Made by a program: the position numbers and the translations under genes
Notes under the pieces: model-generated
The model's input: the letters and a program-made list of their open reading frames with translations, nothing else
Database searches by the model: none
Told to the model about the DNA's origin: nothing
Source of the DNA: Candidatus Thalassarchaeaceae archaeon
GTDB taxonomy: Archaea; Thermoplasmatota; Poseidoniia; Poseidoniales; Thalassarchaeaceae
Length of the DNA: 64,000 nt
NCBI GenBank assembly: GCA_029250605.1
Contig: JAQXEZ010000016.1
Coordinates: 68,272-132,271, forward strand
Direction of reading: 5' to 3'
Shown here: positions 10,302 through 39,100 of the stretch, one piece after another
How the letters are laid out: each line of letters begins with the position of its first letter
Numbering within the stretch: the stretch's first letter is position 1

Positions 10302-14852
<4,551 letters not shown>

Positions 14853-14970
14853 TGCCAATCCGTCCCGGCAGAAGGCCATGAATATCACCCCTCCGGGCTC
14901 AATCTTCCCACAGATTTTCCACTCTCACAATCGTGCGAAGGTTCATCCTCCGAATTTCACTGCCAAAGGC

Positions 14971-16975: not shown

Positions 16976-17041
16976 TGAAAAATAGCACCAATCTAGGGGT
17001 TCTCTTTCCAATCCGTTCTACGAACGGTTAAAACAAGCGTT

Positions 17042-20000
17042 TTGGTCGGCGCGATGCTGAGTTATTGGCAAATAGGTCCGGTGGATGGGATGGAACAGGA
17101 GAAAGATACCCTTCAAGTTGTTCAATTCAACAACCTTGCCGCACCCGTTGCTATCACTCTGGCACTACTTGGTTTGACTATCGTCGCCTCCTCTCTGGAA
17201 GGCAGAGAAGTAGACGGCGATTTCCTCTCTACAGCCATCCTGATATCACTATCAGTGTTAATACCAGCATGTATTGGCAGGTCTTCCTGGCTGATTCCTC
17301 TTGATTCCGGAGCCCTACGTGTCGGCGCTATCACTCTCGCGGCATCACTCATAGGAATAATTGCAAATTCAGCAGATCCAGAAAATTTCAACCATATGTT
17401 CGTTGCCACATTCGTCTTTGTTGGATTCGCTTCAGCCGCCTTAAACGAATCAGAACGATTTGAAGAGTCTGCAACCTTCCTCTCAATAGTTCTGGGGGTG
17501 CGTCTTGCGGCATTCTATGCAGGAGGACTCATCATCGCTCAAAGTGACTCTCTTGCTGTGATCGACACCGTCAGGGAATCAATCGGAGCCGCATTCTTCT
17601 CATTCTGGCTCGCTTCAATATCACTCGGTTTCCTTGTGATGGTCGGACTAAGGGGGACAATCGAGAATCGGGGCACAGGGAATCTAATGGCCAATCTTCC
17701 AAACATTAGGGAGAACCCAGAGGTGGGAATTTACGCGTCTCTAGTATTCGCTAGTTTCTTGGTTCCACTAATCTGGATCGGCCAGATTGACTCTCTCCAG
17801 GATTTCTCTCAGCAGAATCACATTGGATTGGCATGGGCATCATTCTCTGTATTAGTGATCTTCATTCATGCATTCTTCAGAGCAGAGGGGTGGCACGTAT
17901 TGGGTGCACTTCTGGCAGTGAACTGGATTCTTTACTCCATTGGCCATATTCATGAGATTGGTAACGAATTACCATCCTTATTCTCCGAGGACGGATTCAT
18001 TGGCTCCTTCACCTGGTTCTTCCTATGGTTCTGGATGAACTTCTTCACACTCTTCTTTGCTTCCAGAGGTGTTTTCGGAGATATCGCCCCTAGAAGGGAG
18101 AGGAGTGGATTCAGAGTCTGGTGGGATGTCAACTCCTACGTAGTGATGGTCACTCTTGCCTTCTTGATAGCACTCATCGTTAGAACCGCATGGAACGTAA
18201 TCCCGGCAATGAATGCGAATGGAACCGGGCTATGGGACATGACCGGTGGTTCTGATCCTTGGTACATGAAGAGAGTAGTGGACTACGTTATTGCTGAGAG
18301 GAGCCATCTGATTTTCGATCATGATAGGGCTTACCCATCCGGGGGGATTAATCCAAGGCCACCACTCTTCTCTTGGTCCCTAGCACTAGGTGGTTTGGCT
18401 CTCTCTTGGATTCTTGAGATTCCAGCCGATCAAGCAGTGTGGTGGTCCATGTCGGCTCTACCAGCAGTCTACGGCGCCCTCATAGTCCTCCCAATTGCTG
18501 GGATAGCCTCACGCGTACACAGCAGGAGAGCGGGCATCATTGCAGCATGGTTGATAGCACTAATGCCGGGTCACATGAGCCGCTCAACATTCGCAATGTC
18601 GGACCACGACTCCTTCGCAATGCTTTTCCTGGCAATAGCATTCTACTACTGGATCAGGGCGATTGGGCATATTGATCACAATAAAATCTTCAAGTCAACT
18701 AGCACAAACCCTCTGTACATTATCGCAGGAATGAGGGAGACGTGGAAGAGGAACCCCTCATTGATGGCAAATGCTTCAATGGCCGGAATCGCTTTCTCAA
18801 TCATGGCCCTTGGGTGGAAAGGATTCGTTTACGGACCGGGAATCCTCTTCCTTGCTTACTCATTCCAAGTTGCGATCAACATTTTCAAAGGAAGGGATAG
18901 CCTTCAATTTACCTCTGCAGCCCTTCAAATGATGCTAGTCGCAATCCTCATTCCGACTCCATTCTATGCCTGGCCGGGAATGAATCTCCTTTTCGCACCC
19001 AGTGGAATGCAGCCTATGTTCTACATAATCGGGTTCACATTCGCGATGGGATGGGTGTCTAGCTCATTCAGGGACAAGCCTTGGCTGTTGGTAGTCCTAG
19101 GGGGGAGCGCCTTATTCGGTTCGATACTCGCTTTGCTATACATTCTCCAAGTTAGAGACCTTTTCAATGGATGGGACATTCTCTTTACCGGCGGTTTTTA
19201 CTTCTCCAAGAACAAGATCTTCGGCACTATCGGTGAGGCGCAAGCTCCCGAGAGGGGCGTTCTTTTCGCATCCTACGGCCCCATAGTGGCTCTAATCGCA
19301 ATAGGTTGCGCATTCTTGCTATTGTGGAGGGGTAGTAGGAAGAACAAGTCAGATCTAACTCTTCTTGGACTCTGGACCATTATCGCCACATACATGGCAT
19401 GGTCAGCCGGCCGTTTCATAATCAACGCCACCCCAGTAATCGCAGTAGTGGGGGGAATCGGGATTTCCATGCTATGGGGAGCAGCAAGTTTACCAGCCTT
19501 CACCAAGGTATGGAGGAACTCTGGGATCGGAACCCCAAGGACCCGTTTCAAGTCTCTATGGCCGGCCACCAAAGCACGTCCAGGAGTTCCAGCCATGGTC
19601 ATGGTTTTGCTCCTCATCACATCTCAACACGCGACTTATGGGATCGATGCTGGAATCCCAAGAGGTGATCAGTCTGCGAACGAAATTGACCAGAGCCTAT
19701 ACGACATCGTCCCGGACATACTGAGGCAAGACTTGCTAGGTCTCTTTTCAGTCATGAATGGCGATACGTACGACCAAAGCGATTCTGGCCTATGGTACAT
19801 GGGTACTTTCGGCCCAAGCTTCAATTCACAGGGCTGGAATGAGGCATATGACTGGCTCTCCCAGCAAGATAGCGAAACACCATTCAGCGATCGTCCCGCC
19901 TTTGTTTCCTGGTGGGACTATGGTTTCCAAGCCTTGGCTTCCGGACAGCATCCCACGGTTGCCGACAACTTCCAGTCTGGAATACCAAACAGTGGGGCAA

Positions 20001-23000
20001 TGTTACTATCAGGAGGCCAGGAAGATACACTTTCTCTGTTCATAACAACCCTGGCGATGGGCGACAAGAGCATCAACAATGGCCAACTCGGTGAATCCTT
20101 CCTATCCGTCCTAGAGGGTCACATGACTCCAGAACAGGTCCAGGAGTTCGAAGCTATCACTTCCAATACCAACAAGGGGTTTGTCCAAGATCGTTTGATG
20201 GCCGTCGTTGCGGAATATGGGAGTGCCGAATTGCTCCAGGGTGAACCCCTGGACAGCAATGGGCTGACATGCTCCGATCCTTGTTTGGATGCCTATGTTG
20301 TATTGGTAAACGGGGAACCATTCGGTGAAGCCACCACCAATTCATCCGAGGCAATGGCACTCTTCGATCAGGCTCGCGGGTCAGAATCCACGTTCGAGTT
20401 GGCAGAATTCGATGACGCAAGTCACTACGATATGGCAGGATACCGATATACCAGAGACATCATCGACGACTACGATGATCTCTCGACCGCGCTCCACAGG
20501 ACCAATGCCAAGTTCGGCTTGGCTCGTGCGTTCCTAATCACGGCCTTCTCGCTCGATGATCTCGTACAGATATATGACGGAATCTCATCAATCGACACGT
20601 ACGAGGTCTCAGATTACGAAGAGTCGCATGGGAGTACAACCTCGAGGAACCACGAGATTCGGTACTTCGCTGTAGATAACCGGCTATATCCACTTGGAGG
20701 GATGTACTACCAGGACTATCAGTCGTACCATAGGGGGCAAACTACTGGAATCTTTCATGCTCCAACTCATCTTTCTGGTCTAGACATCGACTCATACATT
20801 ACAACAACTTACGAAACAAATCAGGGTGATTTTTCCCCTGAGGTGTTCCAAAACATGTACTTGGAGGACCTCAAGGCTCAGGCTTCCGGAGCATCTACTG
20901 GCGAGGACATGATTCAGATGACGGATATGAACTATCAGCATCTGGACAGTTTCTTCGACACGATGATCGCAAGGACATATGTCGGCTATGGGACTTCCAC
21001 GTTGGGGCTTCCATCGATAAGCGGCCAAGTAGGAGATGCCGACACGCCTTCTACTTGGATTCTACCAAACTCGCTTACGGGGACTCCAGGGAGCTATCTA
21101 CAGGGAGCAATGGCACTTCCAGGGGCAATGATGAATCACTTCGTACTATCCAATTGGTACGATCCGACAAATGGTACTTCCTGTGAAGAAATTCAGATTA
21201 CAGGCTCTGCTTCAACAGTAGCGGACAGTTCTCAATTGTCGGAAGTCTCACTCTATTCAGAGGACAGCCTCTCATCAGGATGGTCCCAGATTCAATCAGG
21301 AGGCCCTTGGAAGATGACCCAAGTGGAAGATGGAGTCATCCCCATGAACGCCTCAACTACCAATTATGACCCCGACGAAGAGACGCTCTCAATCAGTTCA
21401 GCAGCTTCATCTTCTGCTAATGATACCGAATTCACCCTAACAGGAAAGGTGGACAAGTACTGCGGCTCGATTTATGACTCCAACAGGAATGTAAAGATCC
21501 TGAAGTACTACAGTGGCGCAACACTACAGGGCACTGTCTCGCTAGAAGGAGTCGGACCAGTGCCCAATGCAAGGATCCTAATCGAGAGAGACGCTTTCAG
21601 CGGAGATGAGTCCGCGGACGAAGAAGGCCATGTCGTAGACAACGACTCCAGAACATACTGGATACCAATTGGGAGTACTCAAGCAGACGAGAATGGCCAC
21701 TTCTCTTTCACCGCTCCAGCTGGAAAAATCCGCGTCTCTGCTTTCACAGGCGATCCAGACTTGGATGCAGCCAGAACATCCCTATTATCAGGTTCTGCCA
21801 ACCTAATGTCAGAACTTTTCTCAGAGACATCCCAGAACCGAGCCGTAAACCCAGTAACTGGAATCCTGGGCAACGTCTACGGGTCAACATGGCTCTCTGA
21901 GACAATAGTGAACATTTCTGGGTCAGATGGACACAGCAATGGACAATCCGTCATTGAGGCCCCAATATCGGTATCCCCATCAACTGCTTCAGGAATACTC
22001 TCATGGTCGGGCGAACTTGATTTCGATGGGGACCCTGTTCTTTCTGCCAACATTACCCTCACTCCTTCTTCAGAAGATGTAGTAATCCAACCCTATGAGG
22101 TCATTACTTCTGATGGGAGCATGGTCGGGGAAGACTTGAGATTCAGTGGTATAGGGGAGGTCACATTCCTGGGGGAGGGAACTATGGAGAGCATGGGAGC
22201 AGTATCTGTTCACGACTTCACTGGTACTCATACTCAAGCTGTATTCGATAACCACAGTATTACTGGAGAAGGGCAATTCTCTGGAAAGGGTATGATCGAT
22301 GGCACACTATCGGGCGAGTTCCCAAATTGCTCTGGAGATTCAGTCCCCGAAGGTTCTGATGCATGCATTAACGAAGAGGGGCACTATCTCTTGGAAGGAA
22401 TAGCAAACGGCTCTGGAAAGTTCACATCACAGGGAGTCAGTGAATTCACCAGGGAACTCTCCCAGGCCACATTCATCGGTTCAGGCAACTTTGCCACAGT
22501 CCCTTCGGATGACCTTGTCACATTTGGGACAATTAATGGAACTGGTACTTTCTCGGGTCACGGATCGTTCAGTGGACCTATGGTACGACCAGGTTCCTTC
22601 CATATCGTCGACGCCCTCCCTGGGGAGTACGTCGTTTCAGTGGATTTCGGAACCGGGGATCCTGTGGAGATTGTGCAACCATTCGTAATCCCTCTGACTT
22701 CTTCTGAGATTCAGACTCCTGTATCTATCACTGGAGGCGCGATCAAGGGAACTGTCTCGATTTTCACAGGTAGGCCATTGTCGAGTGAGGTTTCGATTTT
22801 CTCGATCAATGGCTCTAGTGAGGATTCCAATGAAGAGTGCCAAGGCGTCATCACTCAACCATGTTTCGTCATTCCTGACGAAAGCGGTTCTTTCGAGGTC
22901 GGACCAATAGTCCCAGGCTCTTACATCGCAGAGGTAGATATCGATGACGACGGTTTCCCAGAGCTCTCTCAGGCATTCACGTTCGAATCCGGATTAGCAT

Positions 23001-26000
23001 CTCTAGTGTCCTTCCCTTCTGAAGTACCTCAAACATCCGATATCACATTCACTCTCTCCGATGACGGAATCAGTGTTGATGACCTTCATTTGCAATTTAT
23101 ACCCGAGGATCTTTCCAGAAGTGCAGTCACAGCAATGTTCGACAATGAGTCAAAGACTTACCATGCCGAGTTGAACCCAGGCAATTGGATACTCAATTAC
23201 ACACTTAGCGATGAGAAGCAACTGTGGCAGCGCATATCTATCGGTAGTATTGATGTCAGCGACTCTTTCGAGTTCCTGGTTAGCCAGGTCGTTAGTGGGG
23301 TCGTGATCGACTCAGTTAAGGGGGACGAAATTTCAGATCCACTGTTGTCCAGAGTGACCAACCAGGAGGTTATGTTCCAATGGCAGGGATTCACTCTCAA
23401 ATCCGTAACCGACTCATCTGGAGAATTCAGCGTTATCCTCCCACAAGGTGCCTTTGTCCATGCAACCGTGGAGAGAATGGTCGGAGCAGGTGGATTCTTC
23501 TCCAACGGCACGAGCTTCCAAGTGACAGATTCGATGGAAAATATCACAATCGAACTCACTGAATCAACAATGGTCCTCGGAGAAGTAAGCCTCAATCGTG
23601 AAGGAAACACGTACAACCAAGGATTCTCCGGATGGACTCCCGTATTTGCCAAAGCAAACAACTTGGACGGAACAACAGACGCCGTTTGGAGGGAAGAGGT
23701 GGATGACCTCGGGCGATTCGACATGCTGCTGCCTCTAGGTAACTGGTCTTTCACATTGGAAGCCGGCAGTGAAATGACTGCCAATGCCGTAGTCAAGGAA
23801 ATCAACACAACCTCAGAACCCCTGGTCGAGCTCCTGGTACTTCCAACAAATATTTCTGTGGAGATAGATTTCTTCATCGATCATATGGGCGATAACAACG
23901 CATCCAATGGGACTCCGGTTTCCTATCCATTCGAGATCAAACCACTGTCACCCAATGGTGCAGGTTACACCGTCCCAAGAGAAGGTTCTGAGTGGACCCA
24001 AACAGGTTTGGCAGAACTATCTCTTGAACCGGGAAGGTACCGAATAGTTGTTGAGAGGGCTAACTCTTCTGCAGACGATCCATTCGATACCCTATATGAC
24101 ACAAATGACATCTTCGAAGTTGGGATCGGGTCTTCTACAGTCAAGCGTTCTGTTGGGTTCGAACCAAGATGGTTAGTTAACATCACATTCCGGAATGAGA
24201 GCGGCCAATTACTAGACAACCACGAAGTTAAACTCGAGAACGCCGAAAATGGTTGGATACAAACTTACACAACCAACGAAGATGGTGTGTTGGCCGAGTA
24301 TATTGAAGAGGGGGATTGGATCGTAATTGTAGATGAATTCGAGACAAACTCGGGTGTGTATGAGGGACTGCGAAGGCCGATTTCTGCTACTCAATCGTCG
24401 GCAGGATCCAGATTGAACTTCCAGACAGTCGAACTTGCCTCTGTTACTGTGACTCTCCAATCATCTTCGGATGTGGCAGCACCCGAGTTGGTTGATCTCA
24501 CGATATCTTCACAAGAAGGCCTTGGATCATTCGTAAGTTCGATCGGAGGATTTGATCAACCACTGGAAATAAGGCTGGTACCCGGGTTCTGGAACGTTGA
24601 GATTAACCAGACCAACCAGGACGGAGTCATGACTCTCTTGGAGAATTCTTCGTTGGTTGAAGCCGGTGTAACCGTAGGACCCAATCACCAAGTTTTCCTG
24701 ACCGTACAGAAACTAGTCAGTCTTAGTGGCAAGGTATTCTGGGATCTCGATGATGATGGTGCCCCTGGTTTCTCAGAGGGCCTTTCTAATGCCTCTGTAA
24801 ACATTACCGGAGACCTTGGTTCCCCGACTCATCACTTAATTTCAGATAATGACGGAATCTGGTCCACATTCCTTCCTGTCCAGAGCTCATGGAACATTTC
24901 CGTAGAGAGGGAGGGCTTCGGTACGCAGACTTCTCCAGTCGAAATCGGGGAAACCTCGGTTACCGAAAATATCGAGATTTCAGCTGGCGAGGTTGAAATT
25001 TCCGGCAGCATTTCGTATCCTGACCAGACATGTATTTCCAGCGGCGAGTGGCAAGTTCAGATAATCCCATCCCACGGAATTTCAAGAGACCGCGTCACAG
25101 TATCTGGAAACTCTCTGGGAGAGTGGTCTGCCATGATCCAACCAGGTAGTTGGGTGGCCATGGCAACATCTACATCCGTGACTCCCGAATGCATAGATTT
25201 GATTTCTATCGAACCTCTGGAAGTTGGGGTCGATGGAGCCTCATTAGAATCAGAACTAACAGTTGGGGGAACTCTCAGGCTTGATACCAATTGGTTGGAC
25301 TTCGATGGCAGTGCTCATGATCTTTCCGAGGTTGAGGATTATGACCTAGTCCTAGAATACGGCCCAATTTCATGGTCCGAGGAACTAGGAAGCGATGGTG
25401 TCCTGAATCTGCTAATGATGCCGGGAACGGTACAAGTCTCCAGTAGTTTCGAGTTGGACGAGGGTGTTCGGAACGTGTCCTATTCTGGCGGAAAGGGAAT
25501 TTCTATCAGGGCTGGACAGGTTAGCCCAATGAACACCCTTAGCATCGATAGAGTTTCCAAGCAGAGCGTCTCTGCTACGGTACAAGGGCCTGAAAGAGTG
25601 GAAGTTGTAGAGATTGATGCTACTTGCACCAACGACGATGATGGTGACGGCGTAATCAATGGAGAAGACGTATTCCCGAACGACTCCACGGAGACCGTGG
25701 ATACCGACGGCGACGGGACAGGCGACAACGCCGATGCTGACGACGATGGCGATGGCGATCTTGACGACGTCGACGACTTCCCATTAGGACAAGGGCTGCC
25801 GACAAACTCAGCAGAGGGCTGCAAGTACCAGAACGCTGCGTTCAATGTCTCGGTCGAATACGATGGGCACAACTCCTTCGACGAATACACAATCGTCGGG
25901 ACAGTCCCCAGTGCCGATGGAGTGGATTGGAGTGTCCAGTTCCAAAATTCATCAGGGGAATGGGTGGATTCCTTAACTTTCGACTTGGGCCTGACTGATT

Positions 26001-26971
26001 CAGACCTCACTGAACAAATCAGCGTTCGCGTGGTACCGGCCAATGTGGGTGTTGCACATCACTTCCCAGATGGGCACTTGGTCCTAATCAAGATGTCAAC
26101 CGATCAAGGATATTCAACTCAAGTAGAATTGAGGGTGGATGTTCCAGAATACAACGGCATTGAACTCAATGAACCAGAAAACCTATTCTTCGACAGAGAG
26201 GAGACCACCATTACGATCGTGATCCCATTCCAGAACACTGGAAACTCAGACGAGGTGTTCTACTTTGAGTTCGACAGTTCAGAGTGGTGGCAATTCGCTG
26301 GACCTACAACCCAACCAGTATCCCCATTCTCCGATGGTACCGCCACCTTCACACTAGTCCGCTCCTCCGAACCAGAACTGCCTTCTCCCTATGCCGAAGA
26401 AATCACATTTACTGTTTCGGACCTGGACAACAATACTTACTCGGGCTCAACTGTGGTGGAGACAGACTCCCCAGTTCTCTCTGTCGTGGGAGGTACGGCA
26501 AGGATCCTCGGGGGCAATGGATTCGCTTCTTATGGCCAAATAGAGAGTTATTCCGTTAATATCAACAACAGCGGGAATGTAGATGCTGAGATTGTCACCT
26601 TAGTGGCTACCTTGTGCTCCGACATTGTCTGCGAAAATGAGCTAGGCGTCAACTCCACTTCCAGCGGCTCAGTATCAGCAATGAGCGAATCAACATTCTA
26701 CATCACCATGGACTACACCCAGTTTACCGAGTCCAAGAAATATTGGATAGTATTCTCAATAGAGGGCGAATTGATAGATGGAAAGTCAGAGTCTTGCACC
26801 TCGACGAAGTCAGATGGCAAGGCATCCTGCGTCTTCGAGGCTCAGCTATGGACCAGCTCCGAAGAGAATGACAATCTGAAGTACTTGGCATACGCATTCC
26901 TGATAATGCTAATTGCAGCACTCCTTTACTTTACTAGAAGGCCAGGTAGACGAGTCAGCGCCCCGTTCTAA
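17042..26971 (+). CDS. aglB: Giant (3,309 aa) AglB/STT3-type oligosaccharyltransferase fusion. About 10 extra N-terminal TM segments, STT3 core, then an extracellular extension of more than 2,000 aa and a C-terminal TM anchor.
   Basis: WWDYG at 19910-19924 (residue 957). STT3-like first loop GGSDPWYMKR and FAMSDHDSF. Multiple hydrophobic helices. Downstream modules are CarboxypepD_reg-like (GTVSLEGVGPVPNARILIERD...ENGHFSFTAPAGKIRV), a TSP3 cluster DTDGDGTGDNADADDDGDGDLDD (about 25630-25790) and a CARDB-like region. Terminal TM LAYAFLIMLIAALLYF then RRPGRR. TTG at 17042, ATG at 17054. Confidence 0.85.
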   Translation: MVGAMLSYWQIGPVDGMEQEKDTLQVVQFNNLAAPVAITLALLGLTIVASSLEGREVDGDFLSTAILISLSVLIPACIGRSSWLIPLDSGALRVGAITLAASLIGIIANSADPENFNHMFVATFVFVGFASAALNESERFEESATFLSIVLGVRLAAFYAGGLIIAQSDSLAVIDTVRESIGAAFFSFWLASISLGFLVMVGLRGTIENRGTGNLMANLPNIRENPEVGIYASLVFASFLVPLIWIGQIDSLQDFSQQNHIGLAWASFSVLVIFIHAFFRAEGWHVLGALLAVNWILYSIGHIHEIGNELPSLFSEDGFIGSFTWFFLWFWMNFFTLFFASRGVFGDIAPRRERSGFRVWWDVNSYVVMVTLAFLIALIVRTAWNVIPAMNANGTGLWDMTGGSDPWYMKRVVDYVIAERSHLIFDHDRAYPSGGINPRPPLFSWSLALGGLALSWILEIPADQAVWWSMSALPAVYGALIVLPIAGIASRVHSRRAGIIAAWLIALMPGHMSRSTFAMSDHDSFAMLFLAIAFYYWIRAIGHIDHNKIFKSTSTNPLYIIAGMRETWKRNPSLMANASMAGIAFSIMALGWKGFVYGPGILFLAYSFQVAINIFKGRDSLQFTSAALQMMLVAILIPTPFYAWPGMNLLFAPSGMQPMFYIIGFTFAMGWVSSSFRDKPWLLVVLGGSALFGSILALLYILQVRDLFNGWDILFTGGFYFSKNKIFGTIGEAQAPERGVLFASYGPIVALIAIGCAFLLLWRGSRKNKSDLTLLGLWTIIATYMAWSAGRFIINATPVIAVVGGIGISMLWGAASLPAFTKVWRNSGIGTPRTRFKSLWPATKARPGVPAMVMVLLLITSQHATYGIDAGIPRGDQSANEIDQSLYDIVPDILRQDLLGLFSVMNGDTYDQSDSGLWYMGTFGPSFNSQGWNEAYDWLSQQDSETPFSDRPAFVSWWDYGFQALASGQHPTVADNFQSGIPNSGAMLLSGGQEDTLSLFITTLAMGDKSINNGQLGESFLSVLEGHMTPEQVQEFEAITSNTNKGFVQDRLMAVVAEYGSAELLQGEPLDSNGLTCSDPCLDAYVVLVNGEPFGEATTNSSEAMALFDQARGSESTFELAEFDDASHYDMAGYRYTRDIIDDYDDLSTALHRTNAKFGLARAFLITAFSLDDLVQIYDGISSIDTYEVSDYEESHGSTTSRNHEIRYFAVDNRLYPLGGMYYQDYQSYHRGQTTGIFHAPTHLSGLDIDSYITTTYETNQGDFSPEVFQNMYLEDLKAQASGASTGEDMIQMTDMNYQHLDSFFDTMIARTYVGYGTSTLGLPSISGQVGDADTPSTWILPNSLTGTPGSYLQGAMALPGAMMNHFVLSNWYDPTNGTSCEEIQITGSASTVADSSQLSEVSLYSEDSLSSGWSQIQSGGPWKMTQVEDGVIPMNASTTNYDPDEETLSISSAASSSANDTEFTLTGKVDKYCGSIYDSNRNVKILKYYSGATLQGTVSLEGVGPVPNARILIERDAFSGDESADEEGHVVDNDSRTYWIPIGSTQADENGHFSFTAPAGKIRVSAFTGDPDLDAARTSLLSGSANLMSELFSETSQNRAVNPVTGILGNVYGSTWLSETIVNISGSDGHSNGQSVIEAPISVSPSTASGILSWSGELDFDGDPVLSANITLTPSSEDVVIQPYEVITSDGSMVGEDLRFSGIGEVTFLGEGTMESMGAVSVHDFTGTHTQAVFDNHSITGEGQFSGKGMIDGTLSGEFPNCSGDSVPEGSDACINEEGHYLLEGIANGSGKFTSQGVSEFTRELSQATFIGSGNFATVPSDDLVTFGTINGTGTFSGHGSFSGPMVRPGSFHIVDALPGEYVVSVDFGTGDPVEIVQPFVIPLTSSEIQTPVSITGGAIKGTVSIFTGRPLSSEVSIFSINGSSEDSNEECQGVITQPCFVIPDESGSFEVGPIVPGSYIAEVDIDDDGFPELSQAFTFESGLASLVSFPSEVPQTSDITFTLSDDGISVDDLHLQFIPEDLSRSAVTAMFDNESKTYHAELNPGNWILNYTLSDEKQLWQRISIGSIDVSDSFEFLVSQVVSGVVIDSVKGDEISDPLLSRVTNQEVMFQWQGFTLKSVTDSSGEFSVILPQGAFVHATVERMVGAGGFFSNGTSFQVTDSMENITIELTESTMVLGEVSLNREGNTYNQGFSGWTPVFAKANNLDGTTDAVWREEVDDLGRFDMLLPLGNWSFTLEAGSEMTANAVVKEINTTSEPLVELLVLPTNISVEIDFFIDHMGDNNASNGTPVSYPFEIKPLSPNGAGYTVPREGSEWTQTGLAELSLEPGRYRIVVERANSSADDPFDTLYDTNDIFEVGIGSSTVKRSVGFEPRWLVNITFRNESGQLLDNHEVKLENAENGWIQTYTTNEDGVLAEYIEEGDWIVIVDEFETNSGVYEGLRRPISATQSSAGSRLNFQTVELASVTVTLQSSSDVAAPELVDLTISSQEGLGSFVSSIGGFDQPLEIRLVPGFWNVEINQTNQDGVMTLLENSSLVEAGVTVGPNHQVFLTVQKLVSLSGKVFWDLDDDGAPGFSEGLSNASVNITGDLGSPTHHLISDNDGIWSTFLPVQSSWNISVEREGFGTQTSPVEIGETSVTENIEISAGEVEISGSISYPDQTCISSGEWQVQIIPSHGISRDRVTVSGNSLGEWSAMIQPGSWVAMATSTSVTPECIDLISIEPLEVGVDGASLESELTVGGTLRLDTNWLDFDGSAHDLSEVEDYDLVLEYGPISWSEELGSDGVLNLLMMPGTVQVSSSFELDEGVRNVSYSGGKGISIRAGQVSPMNTLSIDRVSKQSVSATVQGPERVEVVEIDATCTNDDDGDGVINGEDVFPNDSTETVDTDGDGTGDNADADDDGDGDLDDVDDFPLGQGLPTNSAEGCKYQNAAFNVSVEYDGHNSFDEYTIVGTVPSADGVDWSVQFQNSSGEWVDSLTFDLGLTDSDLTEQISVRVVPANVGVAHHFPDGHLVLIKMSTDQGYSTQVELRVDVPEYNGIELNEPENLFFDREETTITIVIPFQNTGNSDEVFYFEFDSSEWWQFAGPTTQPVSPFSDGTATFTLVRSSEPELPSPYAEEITFTVSDLDNNTYSGSTVVETDSPVLSVVGGTARILGGNGFASYGQIESYSVNINNSGNVDAEIVTLVATLCSDIVCENELGVNSTSSGSVSAMSESTFYITMDYTQFTESKKYWIVFSIEGELIDGKSESCTSTKSDGKASCVFEAQLWTSSEENDNLKYLAYAFLIMLIAALLYFTRRPGRRVSAPF

Positions 26972-26977
26972 TACTAC

Positions 26978-28249
26978 TTGCATCAGCACACAATGGGGAC
27001 AAACATGCGTGGAATCTCACGTCTAGAATTGATGCCTGAACCTGGGGATCCTAGTCTACTTACAGCCGTAGACAGTGATGCACCCGGCTATCCAGGAGAG
27101 GCCTATGGCATCAGTGACGAAGAGGCTAGGAAGCTGAGGTGGCTAATGAGGCCACTAATGAGGTTCTTGTGGCCTTGGGGAGCAGTCGGATTCTCCGCAA
27201 TAGTCGTCTCTATTTTGCTCCTTTATCCCTCGATATACTCACTTATTGGCGAGGTTCTTGATTCGGAGTGGGCCTTCGAAGATAGCGGCATCAGGGATCT
27301 ACAGGAATCTGGAAGCCTAGGCGAAGGAGTCAGAGTATGCATGGTTGATACCGGCATAGACATCTCTCATCCAGACCTATCACATCTAACGTTATCCGGA
27401 TTTCGTGACTTCTATACCGAAAAAGACTCTCCCGTCAGAGATATCGGAACAAATAGTCACGGAACTTTGATGGCGGGACTTCTTGCTGCGAATGGCTCAT
27501 TCACCGGTGTTGCCCCAAGCGTTTCACTTTCGATTGCGATTTCTCTCGGACCAGACGGAAAGTCTGCAAACGAGAGGATGGTCTCCCAAGCGATTAGGTG
27601 GTGCCGAATTTCTCAGGACTCCGACATAATTTCTCTAAGTCTGGGAACTGCTCCTGGATCTAGCTTCTCAGATTCATCTGACACCCTTGATGCCGTTAGA
27701 GAGGCATTAGAAGATGGGATTTTCGTAATCGCAGCCGCCGGAAATAGTGACTCAAGGCAGAATCTCTCCGACGTCTCTTCCCCTGCTAGCTTATCTGGTG
27801 TGATTGCAGTTGGGGCACATGATAGAAATGGAGATACGTGGGTTGATAGTGCTGTAGGTGCCAAAAACGATCCAGAAACTGGTGAGGAACGAATATTCCC
27901 CAACCAGAAACCCGAGATCGTAGCTCCCGGTGTCGATCTATGGTCTTGCAGAGACAGTGGTCGTGACCCGCCATACGCATTCTCAACCGGTACCAGCGAT
28001 TCTACGGTATTGGTTACAGGAGCCCTCGCCTTGATCCTCTCAGTGTATCGTGAGGAAATTGCGGGAGAAAACGGAATCATCGACCAACATGAAATGGACT
28101 TAGTCAAGGTAGCGCTTGCAAACTCGGCACGAACCGACTCAAGCCAATCTGAAAGCCACGATTCGAAGAATGGCTATGGGCTCCTTGATGCCAAAGAATG
28201 GTCTAGACAAGTAGAAATTGAATTCGGCATCAACCAAGAAAACATATGA
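26978..28249 (+). CDS. Membrane-anchored subtilisin-like serine protease (peptidase S8)
   Basis: Asp VCMVDTGIDISHPDL, His NSHGTLMAGLLAANG, Ser STGTSDSTVLVTGALALI. N-terminal TM WGAVGFSAIVVSILLLY. Starts 6 nt after the aglB-giant stop (TTG 26978, ATG 26993). Confidence 0.8.
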   Translation: MHQHTMGTNMRGISRLELMPEPGDPSLLTAVDSDAPGYPGEAYGISDEEARKLRWLMRPLMRFLWPWGAVGFSAIVVSILLLYPSIYSLIGEVLDSEWAFEDSGIRDLQESGSLGEGVRVCMVDTGIDISHPDLSHLTLSGFRDFYTEKDSPVRDIGTNSHGTLMAGLLAANGSFTGVAPSVSLSIAISLGPDGKSANERMVSQAIRWCRISQDSDIISLSLGTAPGSSFSDSSDTLDAVREALEDGIFVIAAAGNSDSRQNLSDVSSPASLSGVIAVGAHDRNGDTWVDSAVGAKNDPETGEERIFPNQKPEIVAPGVDLWSCRDSGRDPPYAFSTGTSDSTVLVTGALALILSVYREEIAGENGIIDQHEMDLVKVALANSARTDSSQSESHDSKNGYGLLDAKEWSRQVEIEFGINQENI

Positions 28250-35969: not shown

Positions 35970-36141
35970 TGATTCACGTGCGGTTACAGACGACCTTTCA
36001 ACAAATCCATGCCCATAGGCCAATATTTGCTATTTTCAAACACCAGAAACCATTCTAGGCCCTTCTAACGACATATGTCCGAACGACGCTCCATCACCAT
36101 GATAAATCTCTGAACCCGGGATTTTGCATAGAGGTGGGCGG

Positions 36142-39100
36142 ATGCGTAGGAAGCAAACAGCTTTACTAGTCACAATGTTGATTTTTTCTAGCCTCGTATT
36201 CATCTCTCAGACTCGTCCACAATCCCCAGTATCCTCCACAGACCCAAATATGGCTGAGGGTACAGAATCTCCAGTTACCGACCAAGACGGGGACTTAATG
36301 CCTGATCTATTTGAGGTAATTTTTGGAGAATCTGTTGAAATTGAGACTGCAACATTCCAGGGTACCATACTCGGTCTCAATCCATCCGATTCTACTGATA
36401 ATTCAACAGATTACGACAGGGATGGATTAACTGCTTTGCAAGAATACTGCTGGCCTTATACTTTGGATAATTGCTTCGAAGAACGCAATACACTAACGGG
36501 AAAATCTCCAGAGGAAAGTGAATCCGGATTGAGGGAGTATCTTGACCCCAGATCTTCGGATACCGATGGCGATGGCTTGCCCGATGGATACGAAGTACAC
36601 ATGTGCACTTTGGGGGGCCTATACAAAAAAGATCCAAATGACCCTTTGAATCCAAACAATTTCTGGGAATGCCGATATTTCGATCCACTCGATCCTAGCG
36701 ATATCAATATCGATTTTGACAGGTGTGAGGCGGACTTCAGTTGGGGTTGCGGGGATGGGTTCGATTTCAATAGTGATGGGAACATTGACCTCGGAGAAAT
36801 GTTCACCAATGTGGAGGAATACTCACTGGGAACTCCTGATGACTGGATTACTGAGAGGGACGGACTCTGGTGCTGGGGTTCAATTCAAGGACTCTCTGAA
36901 GACTCGTGTCAGACTCAGTTTGAGAGACCAACTGGAGAATCAGGATGGATGGGATCTGACCCTAGATTCTCCGACTCCGACTACTTCTACTGGGATGAAA
37001 TAGCCCCTGCTCCATTAGATGTATTGGGAGATGGGATCCCTGATGGTTGGGAGGCCCAATATGGGCTCGACCCTTTGAATTCCAGCGATGCGATTATTGA
37101 CAGCGATTTAGATGGATGGGACAAAGACAAGGACGGCTTCATTACGGCGGATGTAACTATAGGGACATCCCAGTGGGGCGAGTCATTCAGTAATTTCGAA
37201 GAGTTCTCAGTGGACTTCGATGAAAATTCAGGAGTTATTCCAGGAGTGAGGGGTATTGAAATTTCTTCCGATTCCAATAACCCGATTAATTTTGATCATT
37301 CAACCGCAATAAGGTTAGTCGACTCTGCCGTGCATAGTATAATTTCAGACCAATCAAGAGAGAGGTTGTTGGTCGGAAGTAAATATGGGATTACTGCATT
37401 AGATCCATTCAGAGGAATTTCGACGTCATTTGAGTTTCCCTCGGGAATTGAATTAAACACAATGGAAAGGAACTCAGTAGGAAACATAGATTTCCTGATG
37501 TTGGGGTCAAATATGGGCCTACACACGGTAATTCTAGAAAACGGACTCCCAGTTATGGATTCCCTAACTACTCATGAACTGGGAGAAGCAGCTGTTCTAT
37601 TTCACCTCGCCTCTGATTCATTTGATCCAGGCATCCTGATTATGGGCAAGGATGGGGCATGGCGGACGACATTCTCTGAGGCTGAACAATCTCTTTCCAC
37701 CTCTGAAATGATTTTCGTAGAGTCACTCTCATCAATGCTAAGAAAGTCAAACGCGACCGCAACTTCTGCAGGGCATGCCAAGATTTTTGGAAGAACCCCA
37801 ATTCTACTAATAGGGACTGATTTCGGCCTAATTGCCTGGAATTCTACAGATGGTTCTGACAACAATGGGATGCCATGGTGGGTTTTCACAAGAAATAATG
37901 CCGATGAATTTGTTAGCCCGGATATCTTGGATACCACTAAGACCGCAACAGTCAATTCAATAATGGTAGAAATTTCTGAACAGGGCTCCGACGATGTGTG
38001 GTTGGGGATGGGGGGCGGCCTCCATCTAATCACAATGGACCTATTTATTTCCCAACCGAAGGAGGCTATTGACAACGAGAGAATGCTCAATCTAGGGGGT
38101 CTACTAACCGGAGCTAATGATATTCGCTCTATCCTTCCTCTTGAGGGGATGATTGTTCTAGGTTCTTCAGACGGAACTTGGTGCTTAGAAGGGAGTTCGG
38201 AGGGGATTCTGGACATTCGTCAGAACCAGACAGAAATCCCTGGCCTTGTTACCTCACTCACTACTCTGGAAAGAGAAGGCCAAATCTGGGTTTTCGCCGG
38301 CGTCTCACCTGGGCGATTCATGAATATAGCTCCGATGAACCCACATTCCCATGATTCTGACCTTGATGGGATCCCTGATGGTTGGGAGTTCGCATACGGT
38401 CTCGACCCAACGGATCCGTTTGACGCCTCTAGGGACCATGATGCCGACGGAGTTTCAATCGGCGGTGGCAACGGTCCTGGATTCGACAGATTGTGGACAA
38501 ACTTGGAGGAGTATAGGTTCGTCACGCCATCGAATTTTGGACAAAACGGAACCGATCCCAGAATTGCAGACTCCGACGGAGACGGATTAACTGATGGCGA
38601 GGAGTATTGGGGGTGGTTCATTGACTCAACATCATTCGAGTGCTACTACCTCAATCAGAATTATCTATGTGATTCCGATGTTGGTACATCTGCAGAGGAA
38701 GTTCACCTCGGCGGTTGGACCGGAACAGGTTCGAGTGGCGGCAGTGATCTACCAACCGATCCGACAAACCCTGACTCAGATGGAGATGGTATGCCTGATG
38801 GATGGGAAATCAAACATCGTCGATGGATTGGAGACATCTACACTGGGGGCAATGAATGGACATTGGACCCCAATAATCCCAACGATGCTAATGGTGATGC
38901 CGATGGAGACGGACTAACCAATCTATGCGAGTATGAATGGGAAAGACTGCTCGATAGGTCAATTTCCACCGGTATCATCTCTCATGGTGAATCTTCTGAT
39001 TCAGTGCAAAATTGGACCCCAACCGATCCAAATTCTGTAGATTCAGATTCGGACTCGCTTCCCGATGGTTGGGAAGCTCGCTATTCATGCAACTGGCCAT

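What the first reader, a model, noticed from the sequence alone, without database searches (positions are those of the whole stretch)
17042..26971. AglB/STT3 oligosaccharyltransferase embedded in a 3,309-aa multi-module giant protein
A single uninterrupted ORF has three parts. Residues about 30-350 hold roughly ten hydrophobic segments that precede the recognisable STT3 region. An STT3/AglB-like membrane core follows, with GGSDPWYMKR in the first loop, FAMSDHDSF, and the diagnostic WWDYG at 19910-19924. After that comes more than 2,000 residues of extracellular modules: repeated CarboxypepD_reg-like beta-sandwiches, a TSP3 Ca-binding cluster at about 25630-25790 and a CARDB-like region, ending in a TM anchor with an RRPGRR tail. 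Characterised AglBs are roughly 500-1,100 aa, with only a modest C-terminal globular domain. An OST carrying an adhesin-sized ectodomain and a doubled membrane domain is not an architecture I know to be described. It could couple glycosylation to surface-layer or scaffold assembly, or anchor the OST within the envelope.
Basis: partly seen in the sequence, partly recalled or inferred. Interest (0 to 1): 0.8.

Follow-up and report, generated by a model that had tools for sequence, protein, structure and literature searches.

The report
Giant membrane-tethered AglB of marine archaea
This is a real, intact 3,300-residue gene found in essentially all Marine Group II archaea, in which the enzyme that attaches sugars to surface proteins (AglB/STT3) is fused to an unknown ten-helix membrane module and to a very long adhesin-like outer stalk; databases label it AglB, but I found no description of this architecture.

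Summary
ORF 17042-26971 (+) has no stop codon. The real start is probably ATG 17090, giving 3,293 aa. Residues ~356-1000 are a bona fide STT3/AglB core, and the acidic loop motifs, TIGE and WWDYG (nt 19910-19924) are invariant in 40 orthologues.

It is not a chimera. A scan of GTDB species genomes found 466 relatives, and the best 80 are all Poseidoniales/MGII, including single-cell genomes. Sixty of 85 fetched loci carry a stop-free frame of more than 3,000 codons; nearly all the others stop at a contig end.

- **N-terminal module.** It has 10 TM helices (AF2 pTM 0.81). It is not a copy of the STT3 membrane domain, has no Pfam or PDB relative, and occurs only in this family among 1.84 billion representatives.
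- **Ectodomain.** The modelled 1,200 residues are all-beta and match pilin/adhesin-type tandem beta-sandwich proteins, with no enzyme match. The ectodomain is enriched in sequons. It ends in a TM anchor and an invariant cytoplasmic ...APF tail.
The TSP3 cluster is clade-specific. The CARDB likeness shows only through related families in orthologues.
- **Context.** Gene order (carS-purD-giant-membrane subtilase-beta-helix surface protein) is conserved.

One published MGIIb MAG table lists it as "aglB", the only COG1287 gene, and transcribed. I rate it a new variant of a known enzyme; the roles of the extra modules are inferred.

The parts
17042..26971 (+). Whole ORF (3309 codons from TTG plus stop). 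The probable true start is ATG at 17090 (M17), giving 3,293 aa.
   Evidence: orthologue lengths of 3293-3294 aa and the point where conservation begins
17090..18106 (+). N-terminal orphan membrane module (ORF residues 17-355). It has ten TM helices with both ends cytoplasmic. Charged or polar residues are invariant (R64, E125, R162, R188, E266, E289-I-G, GxFGDxxP; M17 numbering). It ends in an Arg-rich cytoplasmic linker.
   Evidence: hydropathy; AF2 pLDDT 83.8, pTM 0.81, 10 long helices; K+R 10 inside vs 1 outside; no Pfam hit; no PDB fold match; found only in this family among 1.84e9 representatives; not similar to the STT3 TM domain
18107..19591 (+). STT3/AglB membrane (GT-C) domain, ORF residues ~356-850.
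   Evidence: PF02516 at 403-638; TIGR04154 at 368-990; A. fulgidus AglB-L 3waj/5gmy aligned over 355-653; most conserved part of the protein, 0.66-0.80 identity
18245..18274 (+). First external-loop acidic motif GGSDPWYMKR. It aligns with GGNDPWYYYR of AfAglB-L.
   Evidence: G386-R395 (M17 numbering) invariant in 40 orthologues
18590..18616 (+). Second acidic motif, FAMSDHDSF (D-H-D). It aligns with NDHH of AfAglB-L.
   Evidence: D505-H506-D507 invariant
19226..19249 (+). TIGEAQAP: a TIXE-type motif of external loop 5.
   Evidence: T713-I714-G715-E716 invariant. Assignment to the TIXE motif rests on my own knowledge of PglB/AglB.
19910..19924 (+). WWDYG catalytic/sequon-binding motif.
   Evidence: aligned to the WWDYG of AfAglB-L, -S1 and -S2 and of eukaryotic STT3; invariant
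19592..21166 (+). External AglB-type globular region (ORF residues ~851-1375). It includes a family-specific segment of ~200 residues after WWDYG (about 1000-1200), present in all 117 orthologues, and the invariant VDNRLYPLGG (nt 20660-20701).
   Evidence: no Pfam or PDB match beyond the WWDYG unit
21167..21448 (+). Clade-specific insertion (ORF residues ~1376-1469). It is rich in Ser/Thr.
   Evidence: present in 34 of 117 orthologues; low conservation
21449..25048 (+). Modelled part of the ectodomain (ORF residues 1470-2669). It is an all-beta chain of Ig-like/CnaB/prealbumin-like sandwich domains.
   Evidence: AF2 pLDDT 83.6; Foldseek matches at E 1e-11 to 1e-6 to the B. anthracis TIE protein, Gram-positive pilins and adhesins, SpyCEP and alpha-2-macroglobulin MG domains; weak NOMO2 profile match
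21521..21742 (+). First CarboxypepD_reg-like sandwich (ORF residues 1494-1567). The hit is sub-threshold.
   Evidence: E 0.0015; highly conserved KILKYYSGA...ERDAFSGE
22118..22576 (+). Gly-rich GxGxF repeat region (ORF residues ~1693-1845), predicted as unusually long beta strands. Residues 1501-1700 are the best conserved stretch of the ectodomain.
   Evidence: DSSP strands of 15-42 residues at model positions 224-375; invariant Gly/Phe pattern; conservation 0.63-0.68 over residues 1501-1700
24776..24961 (+). CarboxypepD_reg domain (ORF residues 2579-2640).
   Evidence: PF13620, 38.7 bits against a cutoff of 32.3
25583..25780 (+). Asp-rich thrombospondin-type-3-like Ca-binding cluster (ORF residues 2848-2913). 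It is a clade-specific insertion.
   Evidence: NCBIfam MtsC match, E 1.7e-4; no Pfam TSP_3 hit; present in 27 of 117 orthologues
25781..26875 (+). C-terminal external region (ORF residues ~2914-3278), with Ig-like (E-set, CARDB-related) character. It was not modelled.
   Evidence: weak FixG_C Ig-like hit here; DUF11 and NPCBM_assoc hits at the equivalent place in orthologues P0054 and P0117
26876..26932 (+). C-terminal TM anchor (ORF residues 3279-3297).
   Evidence: hydropathy 2.04
26933..26968 (+). Cytoplasmic Arg-rich tail TRRPGRRVSAPF, ending in an invariant APF-COOH.
   Evidence: all 60 full-length loci end in APF
26978..28249 (+). Conserved downstream neighbour: an S8 subtilase with one N-terminal TM anchor (residues 72-90). 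It starts 7 nt after the giant's stop codon.
   Evidence: (mycosin-like, E 3e-33); same position in L001-L005
28274..32578 (+). Conserved neighbour: a 1,434-aa beta-helix/Big_7 surface protein with a signal peptide and a C-terminal TM anchor.
   Evidence: synteny
13113..14888 (-). Conserved upstream neighbour: a 591-aa surface protein (signal peptide, C-terminal TM, weak CARDB hit).
   Evidence: synteny

Best explanation
The gene encodes the AglB-type oligosaccharyltransferase of a Marine Group II archaeon (order Poseidoniales; closest genomes MED-G35 and relatives). It has the lineage-wide form of about 3,150-3,340 residues.

Shown: a complete, strongly conserved STT3/AglB catalytic core lies in the middle of the chain. 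An orphan ten-helix membrane module precedes it. Because that module has an even number of helices, the start of the STT3 membrane domain stays on the cytoplasmic side. About 2,400 external residues follow the last STT3 helix. First comes the AglB-type globular unit with a family-specific insertion. Then comes the stalk; the 1,200 residues modelled form a chain of Ig-like/CnaB/prealbumin-like beta-sandwich domains with no recognisable enzyme domain. The chain re-enters the membrane through one C-terminal helix and ends in a short Arg-rich cytoplasmic tail with an invariant APF.

Inferred: the core transfers lipid-linked glycans to Asn-X-Ser/Thr sequons of secreted and surface proteins, as other AglBs do. 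The ectodomain, tied to the membrane at both ends and itself rich in conserved sequons, forms a glycosylated arch or stalk that belongs to the cell-surface coat. It keeps the enzyme within the layer of surface proteins that it modifies. Several of those proteins are encoded next to it. The N-terminal module and the C-terminal helix probably pack against the STT3 membrane domain as built-in accessory parts, comparable in role (not in ancestry) to the accessory subunits of eukaryotic OST.
For: Identity of the core: PF02516 above its cutoff; TIGR04154 at E 2e-48 over residues 368-990; AfAglB-L and eukaryotic STT3 structures matched by sequence and by profile. The acidic motifs, TIGE and WWDYG are invariant in 40 orthologues at 44-88% overall identity, and the core is the most conserved region.

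Real and universal: 462 database relatives, with all of the 120 best-scoring near full length. 466 relatives in GTDB species genomes, the best 80 all Poseidoniales and including single-cell genomes. 60 of 85 loci have stop-free frames of more than 3,000 codons, and nearly all the rest end at contig ends.

Topology: hydropathy, the 10-helix AF2 model and the positive-inside count of 10 vs 1.

Ectodomain: the all-beta model matches adhesin, pilin and macroglobulin-type beta-sandwich strings. Sequons are 1.3-2.3 times more frequent than composition predicts in 10 orthologues, and 10 sites are at least 80% conserved.

Probably the main or only OST: in the published table for MGIIb MAG SIMO Bin 19-2, the 9.5-kb gene 305 is the only COG1287/aglB entry among 1,251 genes. 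It is transcribed in the field, with log2 fold change 2.05.

Conserved neighbourhood of membrane-anchored surface proteins and a membrane-anchored subtilase.
Against: No activity, glycan or protein-level data exist for any member. The DK/MI Ser/Thr-pocket motif could not be placed by sequence. The score against TIGR04154 is far below that model's curated cutoff (165 vs 450 bits), so the core is a divergent AglB. The absence of a second AglB rests on one incomplete MAG annotation. I could not scan whole MGII genomes. The packing of the N-module and the C-terminal helix against STT3, and the surface-coat role, were not modelled or tested. Residues 2670-3278 were not modelled.
Confidence: 0.7

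Rival explanations
1. Polyprotein precursor. The giant chain is cut after translation, for example by the membrane-anchored S8 subtilase encoded 7 nt downstream. This would yield a normal-sized AglB plus a separate C-terminally anchored surface or adhesin protein.
For: The subtilase gene lies immediately downstream in every locus examined, across 40-95% identity. Its single N-terminal TM helix predicts a catalytic domain outside the cell, and it resembles mycosins, which are processing proteases. Poorly conserved, Ser/Thr-rich, clade-variable linkers exist at ~1376-1469.
Against: No cleavage-site motif was identified. The fusion is kept as one frame in all 60 full-length loci, and no natural split version was seen. 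The only split case, L005, lies in a contig whose neighbouring genes are also fragmented, as expected of long-read indel errors. Adjacency may simply reflect conserved gene order.
Confidence: 0.13
2. Specialised second OST. MGII cells have an ordinary housekeeping AglB elsewhere, and the giant is a dedicated enzyme for a few neighbouring surface proteins or for itself.
For: Several archaea carry two to four AglB paralogues; A. fulgidus has three. The giant sits among genes for surface proteins.
Against: It is the only COG1287/aglB entry in the 1,251-gene table of SIMO Bin 19-2. The scan found 466 relatives among GTDB species genomes, and each of the 80 listed loci comes from a different assembly. 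My scan patterns were specific to the giant, so they could not have detected a conventional paralogue.
Confidence: 0.1
3. Adhesin with a dead enzyme anchor. The STT3 domain has lost activity and serves only as a polytopic membrane anchor for a surface adhesin.
For: The ectodomain resembles adhesin and pilin stalks. The DK/MI motif was not identifiable.
Against: The catalytic core is the most conserved part of the protein, and every motif that could be checked is invariant. An anchor alone would not need this.
Confidence: 0.04
4. Assembly chimera or read-through artefact that joins aglB to neighbouring genes.
For: Nothing specific, only the prior unlikelihood of a 9.9-kb archaeal ORF.
Against: The same full-length frame occurs in 60 independent loci from MAGs and single-cell genomes of different projects. 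There are more than 120 full-length database orthologues at 39-95% identity. Base composition is uniform across the gene.
Confidence: 0.01

Closest known systems
Archaeoglobus fulgidus AglB-L (PDB 3WAJ/5GMY) and other characterised archaeal AglBs
   Same: Single-chain STT3-family OST. It shares the first-loop GG(S/N)DPWY motif, the D-H-(D/H) motif and WWDYG, and the sequence aligns over the membrane domain and the WWDYG unit.
   Different: AfAglB-L has 868 residues and AfAglB-S1/S2 have 591/593. The MGII protein has about 3,293. It adds 10 TM helices at the N-terminus, a ~200-residue insertion after WWDYG, a stalk of ~1,900 residues, and a C-terminal TM anchor. Its score is below the TIGR04154 cutoff.
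Eukaryotic OST holoenzyme (STT3 plus ribophorins, OST48/Wbp1, Ost3/6 and others)
   Same: The catalytic STT3 works together with extra membrane helices and with lumenal (external-side) beta-rich domains that are tied to the membrane by single C-terminal helices (my own knowledge; the STT3 sequence matches are).
   Different: Here everything is one polypeptide. No homology to any accessory subunit was detected: the only such hit was Ost5 in one of 16 sequences at E 0.69, which is noise. The analogy concerns organisation only and is untested.
NOMO (BOS complex) and Gram-positive pilin/adhesin stalks (CnaB, SdrD-B, SpaA, TIE protein)
   Same: Long rods of tandem prealbumin-like/Ig-like sandwiches, C-terminally anchored in NOMO.
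   Different: None of these is fused to an enzyme with a polytopic membrane domain. Similarity is at the level of fold and repeats only (7-13% identity).
Database entries for the same family (UniRef 'dolichyl-phosphooligosaccharide-protein glycotransferase, uncultured marine group II/III euryarchaeote'; NCBI 'STT3 domain-containing protein'; Prokka 'AglB' in PMC9723583 Table S3; eggNOG 274854.MG2_1283)
   Same: These are orthologues, 3,141-3,305 aa long, in the same gene neighbourhood.
   Different: The labels are automatic. None of the papers I searched or read comments on the size, the extra modules or the function.

Membership tests
STT3/AglB/PglB oligosaccharyltransferase (GT-C, CAZy GT66) | Significant match to the family profile over the membrane domain | tested here: met
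   PF02516 at 40.4 bits against a cutoff of 24.5. Orthologues reach E 4e-18 over profile positions 3-365. AfAglB-L matched by phmmer (E 1e-8) and by profile (E 3e-10).
STT3/AglB/PglB oligosaccharyltransferase (GT-C, CAZy GT66) | Acidic metal-binding or catalytic motif in the first external loop | tested here: met
   GGSDPWYMKR aligns with GGNDPWYYYR of AfAglB-L and is invariant in 40 orthologues.
STT3/AglB/PglB oligosaccharyltransferase (GT-C, CAZy GT66) | Second acidic (DXD-type) motif | tested here: met
   S-D-H-D aligns with N-D-H-H of AfAglB-L. D505-H506-D507 is invariant.
STT3/AglB/PglB oligosaccharyltransferase (GT-C, CAZy GT66) | TIXE/SVSE motif in external loop 5 | tested here: met
   T-I-G-E at ORF residues 729-732 is invariant. 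Its position between TM segments is consistent with EL5, but no 3D model of this part was made.
STT3/AglB/PglB oligosaccharyltransferase (GT-C, CAZy GT66) | WWDXG motif at the start of the external globular domain | tested here: met
   WWDYG at residues 957-961, aligned to AglB and STT3 structures and invariant.
STT3/AglB/PglB oligosaccharyltransferase (GT-C, CAZy GT66) | DK or MI motif (Ser/Thr pocket) on the kinked helix | tested here: inconclusive
   No DXXKXXX(M/I) or MXXIXXX(I/V/W) motif could be placed. The invariant VDNRLYPLGG-x-YY resembles the AfAglB-L E613...K618 segment by eye, but the residue at the Lys position varies (M/K/R/S/A/Q). The literature states that such variants need a 3D structure to be recognised.
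STT3/AglB/PglB oligosaccharyltransferase (GT-C, CAZy GT66) | Thirteen-TM GT-C topology with a cytoplasmic N-terminus | tested here: inconclusive
   Hydropathy peaks and the TIGR04154 alignment span residues 362-820. The Arg-rich linker before the first STT3 helix is predicted to be cytoplasmic. The helices of this part were not counted on a model.
STT3/AglB/PglB oligosaccharyltransferase (GT-C, CAZy GT66) | Transfer of a lipid-linked glycan to Asn of N-X-S/T | not testable with these tools
   This needs biochemistry or genetics.
TIGR04154 archaeo_STT3 (archaeosortase A-associated subfamily) | Score at or above the curated subfamily cutoff | tested here: not met
   165.4 bits against a cutoff of 450. 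Only profile positions 2-570 of 831 are matched. There is no PGF-CTERM-like end; the C-terminus is TM + RRPGRRVSAPF.
CarboxypepD_reg (PF13620) beta-sandwich | Profile match above the gathering score | tested here: met
   Residues 2579-2640, 38.7 bits against 32.3. Further copies at ~1494-1567 and ~2384-2415 are sub-threshold. An orthologue reaches E 9e-20.
TSP_3 (thrombospondin type 3 repeat) | Profile match to PF02412 or equivalent | tested here: inconclusive
   No Pfam hit at E<=1. NCBIfam throspo3_MtsC matches at E 1.7e-4 over residues 2848-2913, far below its cutoff. The D-x-D-x-D-G pattern is visible in the sequence.
CARDB (PF07705) | Profile match | tested here: not met
   No hit in this protein at E<=1. 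The related E-set families DUF11 (E 5.6e-4) and NPCBM_assoc (25.0 bits against 24.4) hit the equivalent region of two orthologues.

The most novel reading that the evidence does not exclude
The MGII giant is a self-contained 'OST plus envelope' machine. The orphan 10-TM module and the C-terminal helix would act as built-in accessory subunits, for example to hand over the lipid-linked glycan or to dock at the secretion site. The doubly anchored, glycosylated beta-sandwich arch would be a principal structural element of the still unknown cell envelope of the ocean's most abundant planktonic Euryarchaeota. Glycosylation and surface-coat assembly would then be physically coupled in one polypeptide.
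Probability: 0.2. Interest if true: 0.85.

Novelty: new variant of a known kind. Interest (0 to 1): 0.62.

Why it matters
AglB is normally a 600-1,100-residue single-subunit enzyme. Here an entire abundant, uncultured order of marine archaea carries a version three to five times larger. It has about 24 membrane helices and a ~2,400-residue external part anchored at both ends, and it is conserved, transcribed and probably the only OST. That makes it a natural experiment in how an OST can be built into the cell surface. It also provides an orphan membrane fold with invariant charged residues to investigate, and a concrete handle on the unknown envelope of Marine Group II (antibody, cryo-ET or metaproteomic target). 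Finally, it warns that automatic 'AglB' labels can hide very different architectures.

Tried and rejected
- **Misassembly or frameshift:** rejected by 60 independent full-length frames, including single-cell genomes.
- **N-module as a duplicate of the STT3 membrane domain:** rejected. hhalign probability is 0.3%, and self-BLAST found no internal repeats anywhere in the protein.
- **N-module as a known transporter or flippase fold:** no Pfam hit for it or for 15 orthologous copies. Foldseek against the PDB gives a best E of 0.93 and TM below 0.25 despite a confident model. This does not exclude a transport role.
- **Stand-alone or shorter natural versions of the family:** the short hits come from contigs of 0.6-6 kb. 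The 848-aa P0162 is one of three pieces of the same gene on a contig whose neighbouring genes are also fragmented.
- **The APF tail as a general MGII sorting signal:** none of the other large or surface proteins in the window ends this way.
- **Placing the DK motif at VDNRLYPLGG by eye:** withdrawn, because the Lys-equivalent position is variable.
- **Enzyme or lectin domains in the ectodomain:** none found by Pfam, NCBIfam, PDB profile search or Foldseek.
- **Literature:** searches for MGII/Poseidoniales with AglB, STT3 or oligosaccharyltransferase, and for giant archaeal STT3, found no description of the architecture. Four MGII genome papers and one N-glycosylation review do not mention it.
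Full report
**1. The observation**

The window contains one open frame, 17042..26971 on the plus strand, of 3309 codons from a TTG. Its translation has no internal stop. Base composition is even across it.
- GGSDPWYMKR at residues 402-411
- FAMSDHDSF at 517-525
- WWDYG at 957-961, which is nt 19910-19924
- the Asp-rich cluster from nt 25634
- RRPGRR at 3299-3304

A hydropathy scan shows about ten hydrophobic segments between residues 30 and 345. It also shows the STT3 membrane region (362-820) and a single last helix at 3279-3297. Orthologues of 3293-3294 aa, and the point where conservation begins, indicate that translation more likely starts at M17 (ATG 17090), giving 3,293 aa.

**2. The core is an AglB**

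- Pfam STT3 (PF02516) matches above its cutoff.
- NCBIfam TIGR04154 aligns residues 368-990 at E 2e-48, although far below that subfamily's curated cutoff.
- Sequence and profile searches of the PDB find A. fulgidus AglB-L (3WAJ/5GMY), eukaryotic STT3 subunits, and the C-terminal domains of AfAglB-S1/S2 around WWDYG.
- In a 40-sequence alignment of full-length orthologues (44-88% identity to the query), four elements are invariant: the first-loop motif, D-H-D, T-I-G-E and WWDYG.
- The core is the most conserved part of the chain: 0.66-0.80 mean identity, against 0.3-0.5 for most of the rest.
- The DK/MI Ser/Thr-pocket motif could not be placed. An invariant VDNRLYPLGG-x-YY looks like the AfAglB-L E613...K618 segment, but the position that would be the Lys is variable. 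The literature warns that such variants are only recognisable in 3D.

**3. It is not an artefact, and it is a lineage-wide gene**

The protein database search returned 462 relatives. All of the 120 best-scoring are 2,700-3,340 aa long and 39-95% identical. Where a source names them, they come from Candidatus Poseidoniales or marine group II.

A scan of one genome per GTDB species found 466 stretches encoding relatives. The best 80 are all Poseidoniales (Poseidoniales, Thalassarchaeaceae, Thalassarchaeum, MED-G35, MED-G38, UBA MAGs), and they include single-cell genomes. The closest are 94-95% identical.

Of the 85 loci held, 60 carry a stop-free frame of more than 3,000 codons, and nearly all the others are cut by contig ends. 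The one apparently split gene (848 + 168 + 2,136 aa) lies on a contig whose neighbouring genes are also fragmented, which is typical of indel-rich long-read assemblies.

**4. The N-terminal module**

Residues 17-355 fold, in an AlphaFold2 model built on 16 orthologues, into ten long helices (pLDDT 83.8, pTM 0.81). Lys+Arg counts are 10 on the predicted cytoplasmic side and 1 outside. The Arg-rich linker before the first STT3 helix is therefore cytoplasmic, as the STT3 topology requires.

The module is not a copy of the STT3 membrane domain (hhalign probability 0.3%). It has no Pfam match in any of 16 copies and no structural neighbour in the PDB (best Foldseek E 0.93, TM below 0.25).

A profile search of 1.84 billion representative proteins found it 57 times only. 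Every hit is a giant of this family or a fragment of one from a short contig. Several charged residues within or next to the helices are invariant, which suggests more than a passive anchor. What it does is unknown.

**5. The ectodomain**

After WWDYG there is a family-specific stretch of ~200 residues present in all 117 orthologues, and the AglB-like region ends near residue 1375. Residues 1470-2669 were modelled (pLDDT 83.6) and are entirely beta.

Foldseek matches the model to strings of Ig-like/CnaB/prealbumin-like sandwiches at 7-13% identity. These include the B. anthracis TIE protein, Gram-positive pilins and adhesins, SpyCEP, and alpha-2-macroglobulin MG domains. No match is to an enzyme domain. 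A profile search also touches NOMO2 weakly.

Only one CarboxypepD_reg copy passes Pfam's threshold in this protein. Others are sub-threshold, and orthologues hit SdrD_B, SpaA, Big_1, DUF11 and NPCBM_assoc.

The best conserved external stretch (residues 1501-1700) leads into and overlaps a Gly-rich GxGxF repeat region (about 1693-1845). That region is predicted as unusually long strands.

The TSP3-like Asp cluster (2848-2913) and a Ser/Thr-rich segment (1376-1469) are insertions found in only 27 and 34 of 117 orthologues. Self-BLAST finds no recent internal repeats.

N-X-S/T sequons are 1.3-2.3 times more frequent in the ectodomain than composition predicts in ten orthologues, and ten sites are at least 80% conserved. 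The chain ends with one TM helix and a short Arg-rich tail. The final APF is identical in all 60 full-length loci and is not seen on neighbouring surface proteins.

**6. Context**

The gene order is kept in loci whose giant is only 40-54% identical:
1. a ~590-aa surface protein on the other strand
2. carS
3. purD
4. the giant
5. an S8 subtilase
6. a ~1,400-aa beta-helix/Big_7 protein
7. an AAA_16/TPR protein

The subtilase has a single N-terminal TM helix, so its catalytic domain should be outside, and it is mycosin-like. The beta-helix protein and the 590-aa protein each have a signal peptide and a C-terminal anchor. The subtilase ORF begins 7 nt after the giant's stop codon.

**7. What is known**

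Published AglB sizes run from 591 to 868 residues for the A. fulgidus enzymes. From my own knowledge, haloarchaeal AglBs reach about 1,050 residues.

Automatic annotation already calls family members 'STT3 domain-containing', 'dolichyl-phosphooligosaccharide-protein glycotransferase' or 'AglB'.

In the supplementary gene table of a metatranscriptome study, MGIIb MAG SIMO Bin 19-2 carries the 9.5-kb gene 305, labelled aglB. It is followed by a 'halolysin' and is the only COG1287 entry among 1,251 genes. It is more highly transcribed when that genus is active (log2 fold change 2.05).

None of the searches or papers consulted mentions the size or the extra modules. That library does not hold subscription-only papers, so an existing description cannot be excluded.

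**8. Interpretation**

The best-supported reading is that this is the working AglB of Marine Group II archaea, and probably the only one. It is built into a much larger surface protein.
- **Shown:** the catalytic core and its conservation, the topology, the orphan N-module, the beta-sandwich nature of the modelled part of the stalk, the double anchoring, the sequon enrichment, the lineage-wide distribution, and transcription.
- **Inferred:** that the ectodomain is a glycosylated structural arch in the surface coat, that the N-module and the last helix act as built-in accessory parts, and that the enzyme serves the neighbouring surface proteins.

The main live rival is post-translational cutting by the adjacent membrane subtilase into an ordinary AglB plus a separate surface protein. 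A second rival is that a conventional AglB exists elsewhere in the genome. Neither could be tested with the data I could reach. A dead-enzyme anchor and an assembly chimera are unlikely or excluded.

**9. Verdict**

- the start codon
- the nature of the 'doubled' membrane domain
- the clade-specific TSP3 cluster
- the indirect CARDB likeness

It is a new variant of a known kind of enzyme rather than a new kind of system. Interest is moderate to high. The architecture is surprising for specialists in archaeal glycosylation and concerns a globally abundant, uncultured group, but the catalytic function itself is conventional and the added roles are still conjecture.

Noticed in passing
window 13113-35162 (also L001-L005): A block of genes is kept in the same order in MGII genomes whose giant is only 40-54% identical. 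The order is: 591-aa anchored surface protein (minus strand), carS, purD, giant aglB, membrane-anchored mycosin-like S8 subtilase, 1,434-aa beta-helix/Big_7 anchored surface protein, AAA_16/TPR protein. It may be a cell-envelope gene cluster or simply conserved gene order.
   Followed up: partly
window 26933-26968: The cytoplasmic tail after the last TM helix ends in APF-COOH in all 60 full-length loci, preceded by an Arg-rich stretch. No other large or surface protein in the window ends this way. Its function is unknown; it could be a docking or sorting signal.
   Followed up: partly
window 22118-22576: The Gly-rich GxGxF repeat region of the ectodomain is predicted with pLDDT near 88-90 as beta strands of 15-42 residues, which is unusually long. 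It partly overlaps the best conserved external stretch (residues 1501-1700). No specific structural match for this element could be singled out.
   Followed up: partly
window 283-7017: A 2,244-aa ORF with a transglutaminase-core domain (PF01841) near its N-terminus, DUF4129 near its C-terminus, and a strong hydrophobic segment at residues 2098-2116. It is another giant protein, possibly at the cell surface.
   Followed up: no
window 36124-41853: A 1,909-aa ORF with an N-terminal hydrophobic segment and weak thrombospondin-type-3/CglD-like matches. Its orthologue in L001 shows a faint TSP3_bac hit. Rinke et al. note that thrombospondin genes are widespread in Poseidoniales.
   Followed up: no
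window 17013-17027: A short inverted repeat (CCGTTC-TAC-GAACGG) followed by TTAAAA lies in the 115-nt gap between purD and the probable ATG of the giant gene. I read it by eye and did not evaluate it.
   Followed up: no
L005 62-5121 and 10001-19557: On a 341-kb ENA contig (contig_16102), the giant gene and several upstream genes are broken into many short ORFs. This looks like indel errors of a long-read assembly, not biology. Such contigs can mimic 'split' versions of the gene.
   Followed up: partly
L032 and L056: In two GTDB-genome loci the frame is interrupted inside the contig (longest stop-free stretches of 2,519 and 2,760 codons). I did not examine whether these are sequencing errors or pseudogenes.
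   Followed up: no
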